From the UHGV virus genome UHGV-0115522: a DNA stretch of 34,277 bases; one strand, 5' to 3'. The first letter of the stretch is position 1, and every line of letters starts with the position of its first letter. Position numbers and translations under genes: made by a program. This DNA comes from a virus. This document shows positions 27,358 through 30,986 of the stretch, piece by piece. The notes under the pieces were generated by a model, which searched no databases, was not told where the DNA came from, and saw nothing but the letters and a program-made list of their open reading frames with translations.

Positions 27358-27732
27358 ATGATGACATTCAAACATTTTCTTGACTGCCCATTATGGGCGG
27401 CAGCCGCAGGCTATGATTTTAATTATATGGATTGTATGTCTTATAGCGCTACTGCATACGACCATTCGTTCAGTCTGCTGTTTAACTCTTTAAAGATATT
27501 GCCTGAAACAGAAGTAGGGGAGCTTCATTTGTGTCTATTGGACTTTATCGTGGCTGTAGTTGGTATTGCTGTCTGGCCTTTTATTTTCTGGCTGGTGGCT
27601 ATTGTAGTGTGGTTTAAGTGCAAGACATACCGGGAAAGGTATTTCTTAGGCGATGGAATGACTGATATTGCCAAAATGAACATTGAAAAATGGACTAAGG
27701 AATGTGAAAAGAAATGGCGCAAAAAGAAATGA
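27358..27732 (+). CDS. Hypothetical membrane protein
   Basis: 124 aa with a hydrophobic segment (LCLLDFIVAVVGIAVWPFIFWLVAIVVWF) and a basic C-terminus. Confidence 0.55.
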   Translation: MMTFKHFLDCPLWAAAAGYDFNYMDCMSYSATAYDHSFSLLFNSLKILPETEVGELHLCLLDFIVAVVGIAVWPFIFWLVAIVVWFKCKTYRERYFLGDGMTDIAKMNIEKWTKECEKKWRKKK

Positions 27733-28500: not shown

Positions 28501-28529
28501 ATCCCCTCAATTCACAGAGGGGATTTTTG
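28501..28529 (+). terminator. Rho-independent terminator
   Basis: atcccctc-aattcaca-gaggggat followed by TTTTT, 38 nt after the stop of the upstream gene. Confidence 0.55.
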
Positions 28530-28532
28530 TAT

Positions 28533-28799
28533 ATGTTGCATAGAGTTTTATGGAAAAGCGTTATTGTCGGTGCGATGCTGGCTATGTCCGGGTGTGCAAT
28601 GGTGCAATACAATGACGGTGAAAAGGTAAGCATCCAGTCTGATGGCTGGTATGGGCTGGATAGCCTGCAAAAAACCGCAGATAAAGCCTGTCAGCAATAT
28701 GGAAAGTCTAAAGCCGTATATCAGCATAGCGCGAACGCTAATCCACATCTCGCGCCCGGCACGGGCGTTCAGAACACTATTTGGAAATGCGAACCATAA
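28533..28799 (+). CDS. Small putative lipoprotein
   Basis: ATG 28533 (MLHRVLWKSVIVGAMLAMSGC...) with signal-peptide-like N-terminus and a Cys at a lipobox-like position. Confidence 0.55.
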   Translation: MLHRVLWKSVIVGAMLAMSGCAMVQYNDGEKVSIQSDGWYGLDSLQKTADKACQQYGKSKAVYQHSANANPHLAPGTGVQNTIWKCEP

Positions 28800-28982
28800 C
28801 GCAGGTTGGCTTTTTACATCTTGGGCCGAATACTGATTCCGCGCTAAGTTGTTTGTGCGGAAGTGACACTGTGGAGCTTAGAAATAGTAAATACTGGTGG
28901 GCAACAAATTGAGCCTTCACACGCTCACCAGCACACACAAAAAATGGTTAAACAGCAAGGGAATTAATATCTCAGCGCGACA

Positions 28983-29120
28983 TTAAATAAGCCAGCGCAC
29001 GCCTCTGTTTATCACTGACTTGAAAAACCATATCAGAACCACGATGAAGACAATCGCCAGCACTTGGCTAAGAACAGGCGCATTTAAAAATGCACTTAGA
29101 AACTGAAAAATTACAATCAT
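28983..29120 (-). CDS. Unlisted 45-aa hydrophobic peptide on the opposite strand
   Basis: MIVIFQFLSAFLNAPVLSQVLAIVFIVVLIWFFKSVINRGVRWLI; GAGGA SD 8 nt upstream of ATG (29118-29120); lies in an otherwise ORF-free interval. Confidence 0.4.
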   Translation of the reverse strand: MIVIFQFLSAFLNAPVLSQVLAIVFIVVLIWFFKSVINRGVRWLI

Positions 29121-29588
29121 CAGGGTAATCCTCGTCAAATGTAAAGCTGTGTGCTCTCACGTTGACGTAGAAACCCAACCTCTATATAGTTGGATTCGGT
29201 GAAAGAAAGTCGTTAACGTGAACTTACGGCACATGTTTTCGGTATAAAAATCAGGGAACTGTGAATTCCTTGATGTAGTTGGGGCCTGTAATGCAGGCCC
29301 TATCTATTAATGTCATGATTACATCTCAAATTTTCTCCTTATCATTATTATTTAATAAAATTCAATTAATAAAATATCCATTTCCTGTGTGTGCAAACAC
29401 AGTATGAGGAAAATGGCCTCGTTGCAAGTGCATAACTTTGTGGATAACTCTGAAGGCGAATTTACATTTCGGCGCACCGCAAGCCAGATAAGCTGTGCGC
29501 AAAAAGCAATGGGGTGAGAAAAAAACTTTGAAGATATTGCGGCGACTAAATAATAGCCGTTATTCAATTATTCTGGATGGGATTTAAT

Positions 29589-29840
29589 ATGAACGAATGG
29601 AACATAGCAGCTAAAAGCCAGGAAGAAAGGAATAAAGTTAACGTTGACCTGGCTGCTAGGGGGGTTGCCTACAAAGAGCGATTGAACATACCTGTCATAG
29701 CTGAACAGGTAGCCCGCGAGCAACCAGAGAACCTGCGCACCTATTTCATGGAACGTCTACGGCACTACCGGCAGTTAAGCCTCCAGTTGCCAAAGGGAAG
29801 CGATCCGGTATACCAAAAAGACGATACCATCAAAAAATAA
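29589..29840 (+). CDS. hot: Hot, homolog of DNA polymerase III theta subunit
   Basis: 83 aa from ATG 29589; [43 protein letters not shown] aligns with E. coli HolE ([43 protein letters not shown]) from memory. Confidence 0.8.
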
Positions 29841-29846
29841 CAGCAA

Positions 29847-30422
29847 TCATCCGTTCTGTACTTCTTTAATCCGCGCCAACACAGCTTCACGTTGTGCCTG
29901 GATAGCTGCTTTTTCTTTTTCAAGCCGGGACAGCGATAACTCAAGCTCATTGCTGTACCAGATAAGCAGGTCGAGGTTCATACTCTTGTGATCCAAAAAT
30001 GGTGAAACTCCAAGATTCTCTTCTTGTTCCTGTTTCATCGTGAAGAGGTTCATTTCTTCCCTTGAATCAAATTCGGCAACAATCTCTTGCTGTTCCTGGT
30101 CTGGTCGCTGCGGCATCCTTGCTAGGATAAATGGCGGTTCTATTGAAAACATGAATGACGGTTTAGACCGTGTTTTTACCCAGCTTGCCTGCTTTCTTTC
30201 TGCAAGTTCACAGGCGTCATCATAGTTATCTGCCAAACAAAGCATGGATGGACGGTCCCACGCGCCACCGTTTAGACAAAAAACAACAATTTTCCCGTCA
30301 GATTGTGTAACTCCATACGGATGATCCCACCAGGCGTCCAGCTGAGCTTTAGAGCGTTTCTCGTTAGGAGTGCAGTCAAAATTTTTGGGCAATACAGGAT
30401 CGAGAGGAATGCGATTAGGCAT
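29847..30422 (-). CDS. Hypothetical protein divergent from humD (position of lxr in P1 as I recall)
   Basis: 191-aa ORF; start codon about 136 bp from the LexA box. No motif recognised. Confidence 0.55.
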   Translation of the reverse strand: MPNRIPLDPVLPKNFDCTPNEKRSKAQLDAWWDHPYGVTQSDGKIVVFCLNGGAWDRPSMLCLADNYDDACELAERKQASWVKTRSKPSFMFSIEPPFILARMPQRPDQEQQEIVAEFDSREEMNLFTMKQEQEENLGVSPFLDHKSMNLDLLIWYSNELELSLSRLEKEKAAIQAQREAVLARIKEVQNG

Positions 30423-30557: not shown

Positions 30558-30577
30558 TACTGTATAAATAAACAGTA
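30558..30577. promoter_or_regulatory. LexA box (SOS operator)
   Basis: TACTGTATAAATAAACAGTA: CTGT-N8-ACAG in an AT-rich palindrome, 20 nt upstream of the humD start. Confidence 0.8.
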
Positions 30578-30596: not shown

Positions 30597-30986
30597 ATGG
30601 GCTTCCCTTCTCCTGCGGCGGATTATGTTGAAAGCAGAATTTCTCTTGATCAGCAACTAATCAGGCATCCATCAGCGACATACTTCATGCGGGCGGCAGA
30701 CAGCCATCACCGTGAGGGAATATTGCAGGGTGCTTTGCTGGTGGTTGATTCCTCGCTTACTCCGGTTGATGGTTCGCTGCTTGTCTGCGCTATGGAGGGT
30801 GAATATCGCATAAAGAGATACCGAAAGTATCCGCGCCAGCACCTGGAGGATTTAAGCACCGGGAAGAAAGAGGCGTTACCAGTAGATGACGATGGTTACA
30901 CGGGTAGTAATGCTGTTTTTGGTGTGATCACTCATGTCATCAATGATGCCCGAAGTGGGGAATTTGATGACTGTCCGGTGATTTAA
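30597..30986 (+). CDS. humD: HumD, UmuD'-like translesion-synthesis accessory protein
   Basis: 129 aa with the S24-peptidase/UmuD fold signature (ATYFMRAADSHHREGILQGALLVVDSSLTPVDGSLLVCAMEGEYRIKRY). Confidence 0.85.
   Translation: MGFPSPAADYVESRISLDQQLIRHPSATYFMRAADSHHREGILQGALLVVDSSLTPVDGSLLVCAMEGEYRIKRYRKYPRQHLEDLSTGKKEALPVDDDGYTGSNAVFGVITHVINDARSGEFDDCPVI

What the first reader, a model, noticed from the sequence alone, without database searches (positions are those of the whole stretch)
28983..29120. Opposite-strand 45-aa hydrophobic peptide in an otherwise empty interval, resembling a type I toxin
This ORF has a strong GAGGA ribosome-binding site, is almost entirely hydrophobic with a short basic tail, and is transcribed against the surrounding genes in a 780-bp gap. 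Size and composition resemble small membrane toxins of type I toxin-antitoxin systems; a GC hairpin at 29282-29300 lies about 160 bp upstream of its start.
Basis: inference. Interest (0 to 1): 0.45.

Follow-up and report, generated by a model that had tools for sequence, protein, structure and literature searches.

The report
Antisense-controlled membrane peptide cassette in P1-like plasmids
The 45-codon reading frame is a real, conserved gene for a tiny membrane peptide in P1-type phage-plasmids; it lies downstream of a borrowed host nrdA-like promoter and opposite a conserved antisense promoter, so it looks like an undescribed type I toxin-antitoxin-like module, although toxicity and transcripts are untested.

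Summary
ORF 28983-29120 (-) has GAGGA 8 nt before its ATG, a hydrophobic 45-aa product with a basic tail, and a GC hairpin at 29282-29300.

The window is a P1-like phage-plasmid. The "empty" gap is a discrete, optional ~790-bp cassette (28800-29588) just upstream of hot, the DNA polymerase III theta homologue.

The ORF is conserved in five sequence clades. It is 45 aa in four clades and 42 aa in the fifth. dN/dS is 0.28-0.48, and the SD and ATG never vary. PGAP sometimes calls it a hypothetical protein. The P1 reference instead annotates upfM and upfN on the opposite strand, and both frames are broken here.

An nrdA-like promoter with two DnaA boxes, already noted in P1 record M95666, points at the ORF through a ~270-nt leader. 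That leader is more conserved than the ORF. Inside it, an invariant near-consensus sigma-70 promoter (29162-29190, +) would produce a strongly folding antisense RNA.

No known toxin, protein or RNA family matches. The best reading is a new type I TA-like module (confidence ~0.45). The main rival is a non-toxic small membrane protein whose leader overlaps the hot leader head to head. No transcript, translation or toxicity data exist.

The parts
28800..29588 (.). Optional cassette lying between the stop codon of the lipoprotein-like gene (28799) and the start of hot (29589).
   Evidence: In related P1-like contigs (L097, L111, L116, L118, L156) the upstream gene's stop is followed within 2-3 nt by the hot ATG, and the whole interval is absent. 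P1, P7, the L058 type and the L185 type carry it.
28983..29120 (-). Gene for a 45-aa single-pass membrane peptide (stop codon included): N-terminal FQFLSAFLNAP motif, transmembrane segment at about residues 15-33, basic C-terminal tail.
   Evidence: The ORF is present. Five clades carry it. dN/dS is 0.28-0.48, and intact plus equally conservative outcomes occur in 0.0004-0.033 of simulations for inter-clade pairs. It is intact in 102 of 103 loci. PGAP calls it WP_000123562.1 and WP_162883679.1.
29129..29133 (-). Shine-Dalgarno sequence GAGGA, 8 nt upstream of the ATG.
   Evidence: AGGA and the ATG never vary across the clades, while the 8-9-nt spacer between them varies freely.
29134..29146 (-). 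Block CTTTACATTTGAC just 5' of the SD. It is invariant in the four main clades but has single-base variants (CATTAGAC in a window-type subvariant, TTTGAA in L185). Its role is unknown.
   Evidence: Alignments. The L019/L028/L031 subvariant failed the exact-match anchor.
29156..29222 (-). Composite stem-loop in the - strand leader. The outer helix pairs 29156-29167 with 29211-29222. The inner hairpin is 29171-29197. The + strand promoter is embedded in this element.
   Evidence: All cells of the outer helix and 98% of the inner hairpin form standard pairs. Clade L185 shows one compensatory A-T to T-A change, plus G-C to G.U and C-G to U.G changes that pair only on the - strand.
29162..29190 (+). 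Near-consensus sigma-70 promoter TTGACG-17-TATAGT, with a predicted start near 29197. It fires antisense to the ORF leader and towards hot.
   Evidence: The consensus scan gives 10 of 12 matches. The position-weight score is 14.2 bits in every clade scanned. The hexamers are also unchanged in L185 although their flanks changed. A score this high appears in 25 of 1000 shuffles of the cassette. P1 annotates it as the predicted 'PupfN'.
29197..29312 (+). Structured antisense RNA, which may be a separate small RNA or the 5' leader of hot mRNA. Stem-loop 2 is 29250-29274.
   Evidence: MFE is -37.5 kcal/mol with z -4.56, against -24.5 and z -3.1 for the complementary strand. 97.8% of cells pair, with 9 G.U positions that would be A.C on the other strand. 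The P1 upfN frame across it is broken in the window.
29282..29300 (+). GC hairpin GGGCCTG-TAATG-CAGGCCC: a weak candidate terminator or stabilising stem of the + RNA.
   Evidence: Two compensatory double changes are seen (C-G to U-A in P1/P7, G-C to A-U in L058). L058 also has U-A to U.G, which pairs only on the + strand. L185 has one U.U break. The U-rich tail is only on the + side and is interrupted (TATCTATT).
29303..29343 (-). 5' conserved block of the leader. UUGAGA (29329-29324) and UCAU (29318-29315) can pair with the start-codon region AUGA (29120-29117) and with codons 5-6 (29108-29103).
   Evidence: RNAalifold proposed these helices. All cells pair in 10 distinct sequences, and 5 one-sided changes all keep a wobble pair. 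Two terminal pairs are lost in L185, so the evidence is mixed.
29344..29398 (-). AT-rich, poorly conserved first part of the leader, containing length differences between clades.
   Evidence: Identity to the window is 42-58% here, against 81-91% in the core.
29399..29427 (-). nrdA-like promoter: -35 TTGCAA (29427-29422), a 17-nt spacer, -10 TACTGT (29404-29399). The predicted start is near 29392, giving a leader of about 270 nt.
   Evidence: It is homologous to the E. coli nrdA promoter region in the same orientation. Its -10 sits at the position of the nrdA TATCTT. It is the only - strand promoter candidate conserved in all clades. P1 record M95666 annotates an 'nrdA-like promoter' on this strand.
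29427..29447 (-). Two DnaA boxes immediately upstream of the -35: TTATGCACT (29435-29427) and TTATCCACA (29447-29439).
   Evidence: The sequence is. A 42-bp match at 93% identity is found upstream of nrdA (ypaB) in all 5426 E. coli chromosomes. A DnaA box is annotated in M95666 and in the P1 genome record.
29413..29517 (+). ORF homologous to E. coli ypaB and P1 upfO. It overlaps the DnaA boxes and promoter and reads towards hot.
   Evidence: Translations are and the alignment. Whether it is coding was not tested.
29589..29840 (+). hot, the DNA polymerase III theta-subunit homologue. It flanks the cassette in all five clades.
   Evidence: Pfam PF06440 matches at E 3.4e-32. The linkage holds on a different backbone in L185.

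Best explanation
The ORF encodes a real 45-aa single-pass inner-membrane peptide. It belongs to a self-contained, optional ~790-bp cassette found in P1-like phage-plasmids.

Proposed mechanism:
1. An nrdA-like, DnaA-box promoter (-35 at 29427-29422, -10 at 29404-29399) transcribes the - strand through a ~270-nt leader. The conserved part of this leader folds into several helices and then runs into the SD and ATG of the peptide gene.
2. Inside that leader, a near-consensus sigma-70 promoter (29162-29190) fires the other way. It makes a stably folded RNA that is perfectly complementary to at least ~110 nt of the leader, and to up to ~195 nt if it reads on towards hot.
3. I propose that this antisense transcript keeps peptide synthesis off, through duplex formation with cleavage or through transcriptional interference. 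The peptide would be made when the antisense RNA falls or when the DnaA-controlled promoter is derepressed. It would then insert into the membrane and inhibit growth. This is a type I toxin-antitoxin-like module next to phd/doc.

What is shown computationally: the gene is under purifying selection; both promoters are conserved; one promoter is homologous to PnrdA; both strands carry strand-specific RNA structure; the cassette is present in some relatives and absent in others.

What is inferred: that both RNAs are made, that the antisense RNA controls the peptide, and that the peptide is toxic.
For: Gene:
- Five clades keep the ORF with an invariant AGGA and ATG and a variable spacer.
- dN/dS is 0.28-0.48, and simulation p values are 0.0004-0.033 for inter-clade pairs.
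- It is the only open frame in all clades and is intact in 102 of 103 loci.
- The opposite-strand P1 ORFs upfM and upfN are broken in the window.

Peptide:
- GRAVY is 1.3-1.9 with a transmembrane window at residues 15-33 in every clade. The basic tail (2-3 K/R) is seen in the four 45-aa clades, while L185 keeps only a terminal R.

Sense promoter:
- It is homologous to the nrdA promoter and DnaA boxes in the correct orientation.
- It is annotated independently in M95666.
- It is the only conserved - strand promoter candidate.

Leader:
- The core is 91% identical between the window and P1, against 77% for the ORF.
- The - strand helices show one compensatory change and wobble changes that work only on the - strand.

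Antisense:
- The 14.2-bit promoter is invariant in all clades and arises in 2.5% of shuffles.
- The + RNA folds with z -4.56 and is 13 kcal/mol more stable than its complement.
- The + structure has 9 G.U positions against about 0 A.C.
- Hairpin 3 has two compensatory changes.

Modularity:
- The cassette is present in some relatives and absent in others.
- It travels with hot onto a second backbone.
Against: - No transcript, translation or toxicity data exist.
- No known type I toxin family (Pfam, NCBIfam) or antitoxin RNA family (Rfam) matches.
- The antisense overlap lies in the leader, 64 nt or more from the SD.
- No conserved SD-occluding structure was found; the MFE partner of the SD differs between clades.
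- No trans complementarity to the translation-initiation region was found.
- Hairpin 3 has only an interrupted U tail, and no + strand terminator lies before hot. The + RNA is therefore probably the hot leader rather than a dedicated small RNA.
- The cassette-hot linkage in two backbones fits a role as hot's regulatory region.
- Clade L185 has lost the basic tail through a 20-nt deletion.
- Diversity is only five clades, so covariation support rests on few events.
- From my own recollection, P1 addiction has been attributed to phd/doc alone.
Confidence: 0.45

Rival explanations
1. The peptide is a genuine but non-toxic small membrane protein, for example a modulator of a host membrane protein. 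The cassette would then be mainly the regulatory region of hot. The + promoter makes the hot mRNA, whose long structured leader overlaps head to head with the peptide leader. Expression of hot and of the peptide would be mutually exclusive (an excludon-like switch), with DnaA as an input.
For: - The cassette always sits directly upstream of hot, even on a different backbone.
- No + strand terminator is predicted between 29197 and hot, and hairpin 3 has a poor U tract.
- Relatives without the cassette have hot's ATG only 2-3 nt after the upstream gene's stop, so in carriers the cassette would supply hot's own promoter.
- DnaA boxes fit regulation of a replication protein.
- No toxin family matches.
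Against: - This reading does not explain why a peptide of this size and composition would need a ~270-nt conserved structured leader.
- P1 already has a late promoter directly before hot.
- The layout of a small hydrophobic ORF with an antisense promoter in its leader is the classical type I TA layout.
Confidence: 0.3
2. The ORF is not translated. Its conservation would reflect constraints on RNA or DNA, for example a non-coding - strand RNA from the nrdA-like promoter or binding sites, and the hydrophobic frame would be a by-product of T-rich sequence.
For: - The non-coding core is more conserved than the ORF.
- Diversity is low.
- dN/dS is not very low (0.28-0.48).
- The C-terminal third is altered by frameshifts in L001 and L185 and in database variants P0003-P0006.
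Against: - It is the only frame open in all clades, and its length is kept.
- The SD and ATG never vary while the spacer varies.
- Substitutions are conservative hydrophobic exchanges, and simulation p values reach 0.0004.
- Even after the 20-nt deletion in L185, the SD, the ATG and a 42-aa frame with the transmembrane segment remain.
Confidence: 0.1
3. The peptide is a phage life-cycle membrane factor, such as a holin or antiholin-like protein, a superinfection-exclusion protein or a lysis-timing factor. It would be expressed in lysogens or early in infection.
For: - It is a small single-pass membrane peptide with a charged C-terminus carried on a phage genome.
- The region is dispensable for plaque formation in P1. 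The overlapping upfN and upfO are nonessential and upfM was not tested (PMC10695390).
Against: - It is not adjacent to lysis genes. Its neighbours are hot, lxr, humD and phd/doc.
- It is absent from many close relatives.
- No conserved late promoter points at it on its strand; the only conserved candidate is nrdA-like sigma-70.
- PHROGs gives no functional match.
Confidence: 0.1

Closest known systems
hok/sok of plasmid R1 and its relatives (pndA/pndB, srnB/srnC): a cis-antisense type I toxin-antitoxin system
   Same: - It has a small (~50 aa) single-pass membrane peptide on a plasmid or prophage.
- The mRNA has a long structured leader.
- A strong antisense promoter lies inside the leader, and its RNA is complementary to a region upstream of the toxin start.
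- Long-range pairing involving the initiation region is possible.
   Different: - Pfam and NCBIfam find no match to any listed family, including Hok/Gef, and Rfam finds no match, including Sok.
- There is no conserved overlapping leader ORF like mok; the 21-aa upstream ORF is lost in L058.
- 5'-3' fold-back pairing was not significant.
- The antisense RNA may be much longer and may continue into hot.
tisB/istR-1, dinQ/agrB and zorO/orzO: chromosomal type I systems with long 5' UTRs
   Same: - The peptide is very small and hydrophobic, and the 5' UTR is long.
- A divergently oriented RNA gene lies upstream of the toxin ORF.
- Toxin transcription is wired to a stress or DNA-metabolism signal (LexA in those systems, DnaA boxes here).
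   Different: - Those antitoxins pair through short trans complementarity at a standby site. Here the overlap is perfect cis-antisense, and no trans site was found.
- The promoter here is nrdA-like with DnaA boxes, not LexA-controlled.
- There is no sequence similarity.
E. coli nrdAB promoter region (DnaA boxes, ypaB)
   Same: - A 42-bp match at 93% identity covers the -35 and both DnaA boxes, and the alignment extends upstream through the ypaB-like sequence.
- The orientation relative to the downstream unit is the same.
- The -10 lies at the same position.
- It is annotated as 'nrdA-like promoter' in M95666.
   Different: - Homology stops at the -10.
- The functional NrdR boxes 1 and 2 downstream of the promoter (PMC12176259) and the nrdA leader are replaced by unrelated sequence that ends in the 45-aa ORF.
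Excludons: head-to-head overlapping 5' UTRs of divergent genes
   Same: Two divergent transcription units would have leaders that overlap by up to ~195 nt, so each would be antisense to the other.
   Different: - No transcript maps exist for this locus.
- One partner is a 45-aa hydrophobic peptide, which is typical of type I toxins rather than of excludon partners.
P1 phd/doc, the type II addiction module about 1.5 kb away
   Same: It sits in the same accessory region of the same element, so the two could serve redundant maintenance roles.
   Different: phd/doc has a protein antitoxin and a Fic-family kinase toxin. Its mechanism and sequence are unrelated.

Membership tests
Type I toxin-antitoxin system (generic) | Toxin is a small (<60 aa) hydrophobic peptide with one transmembrane helix. 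| tested here: met
   The product is 45 aa with GRAVY 1.75, and the 19-aa hydropathy window at residues 15-33 scores 2.59. The same holds in all five clades.
Type I toxin-antitoxin system (generic) | An antisense RNA, encoded in cis or nearby, base-pairs with the toxin mRNA. | tested here: inconclusive
   An invariant 14.2-bit sigma-70 promoter lies inside the predicted leader on the opposite strand, and the + RNA structure is strand-specific. Neither transcript has been observed, and the 3' end of the + RNA is undefined.
Type I toxin-antitoxin system (generic) | The toxin mRNA has a structured leader that limits translation. | tested here: inconclusive
   The leader helices are conserved, with one compensatory change and wobble changes specific to the - strand. 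A helix covering the start codon is supported in L058 and L110 but loses 2 pairs in L185. The MFE partner of the SD differs between clades.
Type I toxin-antitoxin system (generic) | The peptide is toxic when over-expressed, and the RNA neutralises it. | not testable with these tools
   This needs induction and rescue experiments.
Known type I toxin families (Hok/Gef, Ldr, TisB, Ibs, ShoB, DinQ, ZorO, Fst and others) | Significant match to the family profile. | tested here: not met
   Pfam gives 0 families at E<=1. NCBIfam gives only noise at E<=10 for three clade variants. PHROGs gives only a weak match to an unknown-function family (E 0.015). The full HMM search of 1.84 billion proteins finds only copies of this same locus.
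Known antitoxin or regulatory RNA families (Rfam) | Match to a covariance model. | tested here: not met
   There are no hits at gathering score in the whole window. In 28800-29600 the only hits have E values of 0.8-10 and score far below their thresholds.
nrdA-type DnaA-regulated promoter | DnaA boxes directly upstream of -35 TTGCAA, a -10 seventeen nt downstream, and sequence homology to PnrdA. | tested here: met
   Searches show 93% identity over 42 bp, the same orientation and an aligned -10. M95666 annotates an 'nrdA-like promoter' and a DnaA box.
nrdA-type DnaA-regulated promoter | A pair of NrdR boxes downstream of the promoter. | tested here: not met
   Homology to the nrdA region ends at the -10. 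Only a single 11-of-16 resemblance to the box consensus was seen by eye in 29171-29197, and it has no partner box.
Intrinsic terminator (for the hairpin at 29282-29300) | A GC-rich stem followed immediately by a run of U. | tested here: inconclusive
   The stem is met (7 bp, extendable to 13 bp with G.U pairs on the + strand). The tail TATCTATT is interrupted, and the scan did not report this site. L058 has the better tail TATCTTTT.
Phage holin or lysis cassette protein | Encoded beside endolysin or spanin genes and expressed late. | tested here: not met
   The neighbours are the lipoprotein-like gene, hot, lxr-like, humD and phd/doc. No late promoter points at the ORF on its strand.

The most novel reading that the evidence does not exclude
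The cassette could be a replication-status-sensing type I toxin-antitoxin switch. In this reading a phage-plasmid captured the host nrdA promoter and its DnaA boxes to couple synthesis of a membrane-active peptide to the host's DnaA and replication state. The opposing transcript would act both as antitoxin and as the mRNA leader of hot, the polymerase III theta homologue. The element would thus toggle between helping replication (hot on, peptide off) and arresting the cell (peptide on). This would be a second, RNA-based addiction or abortive module in the classic phage P1, and none of the literature searches run here turned up a description of it.
Probability: 0.15. Interest if true: 0.75.

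Novelty: new member of a known kind. Interest (0 to 1): 0.5.

Why it matters
P1 is a textbook phage-plasmid, and its maintenance is usually credited to phd/doc. This region of the reference genome is annotated with three "unknown protein function" ORFs on the + strand. At least two of them (upfM, upfN) are not conserved, whereas the conserved gene on the opposite strand and its RNA partner are missing from that annotation.

If the cassette is a type I TA-like module, three things follow:
- It adds a new toxin and RNA family.
- It explains what the long-known "nrdA-like promoter" of P1 drives.
- It provides a case of a mobile element borrowing a host DnaA-regulated promoter.

About 4% of complete E. 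coli genomes carry the cassette (216 of 5426), nearly all on P1-like plasmids. The first search shows that such plasmids occur in isolates from human, livestock and wastewater sources. A maintenance or stress function would therefore have practical relevance.

Tried and rejected
1. Membership of a known family. Rfam (gathering and E-value modes), Pfam, NCBIfam and PHROGs gave nothing usable.

2. P1's own + strand ORFs upfM and upfN as the real genes. I rejected this because both frames are interrupted in the window.

3. A 21-aa upstream ORF in the leader (29312 leftwards) acting like mok. I rejected this because the start codon is absent in L058 and the frame differs in L185. The 106-aa ORF P0008 is a gene-caller read-through.

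4. TTG at 29138 as the start (a 51-aa product). I rejected this because it has no SD and is out of frame in P1.

5. 5'-3' fold-back pairing as in hok. It was not better than shuffles in most clades.

6. Trans pairing of the + RNA with the initiation region. It was not significant.

7. A conserved SD-sequestering helix. The MFE partners differ between clades.

8. Stem-loop 1 of the + RNA (29210-29242). It is weakened by the L185 change, and that same change is compensatory in the - strand helix.

9. Widening the family.
   - The genome-contig scan gave only chance 17-mer hits in unrelated taxa (L066-L084).
   - The gapped metagenome pattern gave 0 hits and the exact pattern gave 19 loci with no new clade.
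   - blastn against plasmids, phages and E. coli genomes found only the window and P1/P7 types.

10. Literature.
   - No paper on this locus was found.
   - The P1 genome paper and the hot expression paper are not held.

11. - strand promoters close to the ORF. TTGACG-17-TGTAAT and TTTACA-18-GATGAT would start transcription inside the ORF and are not conserved.
Full report
**What is in the sequence**

- The ATG is at 29120-29118 on the - strand and the TAA stop at 28985-28983.
- The product is 45 aa: MIVIFQFLSAFLNAPVLSQVLAIVFIVVLIWFFKSVINRGVRWLI.
- GAGGA lies at 29133-29129, 8 nt before the ATG.
- GRAVY is 1.75. One transmembrane-length hydrophobic window covers residues 15-33. The tail holds three basic and no acidic residues.
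- The GC hairpin GGGCCTG-TAATG-CAGGCCC is at 29282-29300.

**Where the window comes from**

The region matches P1-like phage-plasmids of Escherichia, Salmonella and Shigella, with identical copies in several. The neighbouring genes are these:
- hot, the DNA polymerase III theta homologue (29589-29840, +)
- an lxr-like gene (29847-30422, -)
- humD (30597-30986, +)
- phd/doc and c1 further on

**The gap is a discrete optional cassette**

In many related contigs the stop of the upstream lipoprotein-like gene (window 28799) is followed within 2-3 nt by the hot ATG. The whole 28800-29588 interval is missing from those contigs. Where the interval is present, it always lies directly upstream of hot.
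- The carriers are P1, P7, the window type and the L058 type.
- A fifth, more divergent type (L185) carries it on a different backbone, beside an H-NS-like gene and a TsiV-domain gene.
- In complete E. coli genomes the ORF plus core is found in 216 of 5426 genomes, almost always on plasmids.

**Is the ORF a gene?**

Evidence that it is:
- A syntenic - strand ORF exists in all five clades. It is 45 aa in four clades. In L185 it is 42 aa, because a 20-nt deletion replaces the tail.
- AGGA and the ATG never vary, while the 8-9-nt spacer between them varies freely. That pattern is typical of a working initiation region.
- It is the only one of the six frames that stays open in all clades.
- dN/dS is 0.28-0.48 for comparisons between clades.
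- I placed the observed substitutions at random in simulations. The frame stayed intact in 3-15% of trials. It was both intact and as conservative as observed in 0.04-3.3% of trials.
- The frame is intact in 102 of 103 loci collected.
- PGAP annotates it as a hypothetical protein in some RefSeq plasmids (WP_000123562.1, WP_162883679.1).

The P1 reference genome does not annotate this ORF. It lists upfM, upfN and upfO on the + strand instead. The upfM and upfN frames are interrupted in the window, so they are probably not genes.

Evidence that weakens the case: diversity is low, and the C-terminal third tolerates frameshifts in L001, L185 and P0003-P0006.

**What drives the ORF**

The segment around 29405-29520 is homologous to the region upstream of E. 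coli nrdA.
- A 42-bp stretch is 93% identical in all 5426 E. coli chromosomes, where it lies in ypaB.
- The orientation places nrdA on the side of the small ORF.
- Alignment puts -35 TTGCAA (29427-29422) and a -10 hexamer at the position of the nrdA -10 TATCTT. The -10 reads TACTGT in the window and L058, TATTGT in P1/P7 and TAGTGT in L185.
- Two DnaA boxes sit directly upstream: TTATGCACT (29435-29427) and TTATCCACA (29447-29439).
- My position-weight scan found this to be the only - strand promoter candidate kept in all clades.
- The 1993 P1 record M95666 annotates an "nrdA-like promoter" and a DnaA box on this strand. No downstream gene was assigned to it there.
- Homology to nrdA ends at the -10, so the functional NrdR boxes described in PMC12176259 are not part of the cassette.

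The predicted start is near 29392, which gives a leader of 253-272 nt depending on the clade.

**The leader is the best-conserved part of the cassette**

Identity between the window and P1 differs sharply by segment:

| Segment | Identity, window vs P1 |
|---|---|
| ORF (28983-29120) | 77% |
| Core (29156-29343) | 91% |
| AT-rich first part of the leader (29344-29398) | 42% |

The core does not code for protein on the + strand, because indels break upfN.

*Minus-strand structure.* On the - strand the core folds into a composite stem-loop. The outer helix pairs 29156-29167 with 29211-29222, and the inner hairpin is 29171-29197. 98.6% of cells form standard pairs across 10 distinct sequences. 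Clade L185 adds three informative changes:
- a compensatory A-T to T-A change in the outer helix
- a G-C to G.U change in the outer helix that pairs only on the - strand
- a C-G to U.G change in the inner hairpin that pairs only on the - strand

*A possible helix over the start codon.* A longer-range helix would pair 29329-29324 and 29318-29315 with codons 5-6 and with the start-codon region AUGA. It is fully kept in 10 sequences, through five wobble-type changes. It loses two terminal pairs in L185, so I rate it as possible and not established. No consistent SD-occluding structure was found.

**The antisense side**

An invariant TTGACG-17-TATAGT promoter lies at 29162-29190 on the + strand.
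- It matches 10 of 12 consensus positions and scores 14.2 bits.
- The hexamers are unchanged in L185 although their flanks changed.
- A score this high arises in 2.5% of shuffles of the cassette.
- It would start transcription near 29197, inside the - strand leader, reading towards hot.

The RNA it would make folds well.
- RNA 29197-29312 has an MFE of -37.5 kcal/mol and z -4.56. Its complement has -24.5 and z -3.1.
- In the three-hairpin model, 97.8% of cells pair. Nine pair positions are G.U, which would be A.C mismatches on the other strand, and almost none run the other way.
- Stem-loop 1 is doubtful. The L185 change that breaks it is the same change that is compensated in the - strand helix.

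It shows these changes:
- a compensatory C-G to U-A change in P1/P7
- a compensatory G-C to A-U change in L058
- a U-A to U.G change in L058 that pairs only on the + strand
- one U.U break in L185

Its U-rich tail lies only on the + side and is interrupted (TATCTATT). The terminator scan did not report the site, and no other + strand terminator precedes hot. The + transcript is therefore probably leaky or reads through. In that case it may double as the sigma-70 leader of hot, overlapping the peptide leader head to head by up to ~195 nt. From my own recollection, hot is reported to be expressed in lysogens as well as late in infection. That would fit, but I could not read that paper.

**Interpretation**

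The anatomy is that of a cis-antisense type I toxin-antitoxin locus:
- a small conserved membrane peptide with a good SD
- a long structured leader
- a stronger opposing promoter inside that leader
- strand-specific RNA structure on both strands
- modular presence or absence on a plasmid-like element

I give this reading a confidence of 0.45.

The main rival (0.30) is that the peptide is not a toxin. The cassette would then be mainly hot's regulatory region, with mutually exclusive divergent leaders. This is supported by the constant linkage to hot and by the weak terminator.

The less likely rivals are an untranslated ORF (0.10) and a phage lysis or exclusion factor (0.10).

**Comparison with what is known**

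- No known toxin family, antitoxin RNA family or any wider protein family matches.
- A search of 1.84 billion representative proteins finds only copies of this locus.
- The literature searches run here found nothing on this locus.
- A CRISPRi survey of P1 lists the overlapping upfN and upfO as nonessential and did not test upfM (PMC10695390).

If the module is functional, it is a new member of the type I TA kind. Two features would be unusual: a promoter captured from host nrdA with its DnaA boxes, and an antisense partner that may be the leader of a replication-protein gene.

**Limits**

- Only five clades are available, and most of the sequences are near-identical within a clade.
- The covariation support rests on a handful of substitution events.
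- The structures were partly derived from the same sequences used to test them.
- Promoters and transcript ends are predictions.
- Nothing here tests transcription, translation or toxicity.

Noticed in passing
window 29051-29148 and 29210-29400 (equivalents of P1 upfM 86099-86212 and upfN 86228-86425): The reference P1 ORFs upfM and upfN are not conserved as reading frames. In the window, upfM stops after 12 codons and upfN after 9. They are probably annotation artefacts laid over the - strand peptide gene and the non-coding core.
   Followed up: yes
window 29413-29517 (+): An ORF homologous to E. coli ypaB and P1 upfO (MASLQVHNFVDNSEGEF...) overlaps the DnaA boxes and the nrdA-like promoter. 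Its conservation may only reflect those DNA sites. Whether it is translated on the way to hot is open.
   Followed up: partly
L097, L111, L116, L118, L156 at about 2500-2510, corresponding to window 28799/29589: In relatives without the cassette, the lipoprotein-like gene's stop codon lies 2-3 nt before the hot ATG. This suggests hot is co-transcribed with the upstream gene there, and possibly translationally coupled to it. Cassette carriers would give hot a separate promoter region.
   Followed up: partly
L185 1-6321 (Logan SRR16987663 contig): A divergent copy of the cassette plus hot sits on a different backbone, next to an H-NS-like gene, a TsiV-domain gene and a VRR_NUC-like gene. This type has no close match in PLSDB (best 85% identity). 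Gene callers fuse its leader and peptide into a 106-aa ORF (P0008).
   Followed up: partly
window 30560-30575: A LexA-box consensus CTGTATAAATAAACAG lies between the divergent lxr-like gene and humD, as in P1. Read-through from lxr on the - strand would run antisense through hot towards the cassette. A second consensus match is at 1305-1320.
   Followed up: no
window 29171-29197: The - strand sequence CCAACTATATAGAGGT resembles a single NrdR box, matching about 11 of 16 positions of the consensus as I recall it. No partner box lies at the required spacing. It may be chance or a relic of the nrdA leader.
   Followed up: partly
window 29259-29265 (loop of stem-loop 2): The loop differs between clades (CTGTGAA, CGGCTAA, CGGCCAA, CGTGA) while the stem is kept. 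On the - strand the 7-nt loops of the window, P1 and L058 types begin UUNR, a YUNR-like U-turn motif of the kind seen in antisense-RNA target loops; the shorter L185 loop (UCACG) does not. This could mark clade-specific recognition or could be neutral drift.
   Followed up: no
NZ_CP030285 (L001 4850-4999), and proteins P0003, P0004, P0006: A few natural copies carry frameshifts or rearrangements that alter only the C-terminal tail of the peptide. The N-terminal ~31-37 residues and the transmembrane segment stay intact.
   Followed up: partly
window 28527-28799 and 27358-27732: The upstream + strand genes are a 90-aa protein with a lipoprotein-like signal sequence (phrog_7757) and a 124-aa membrane protein (phrog_2638, with a weak KleE-like Pfam hit). 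They replace pmgT/U/V of P1 at this position, so this arm of the element is mosaic.
   Followed up: no
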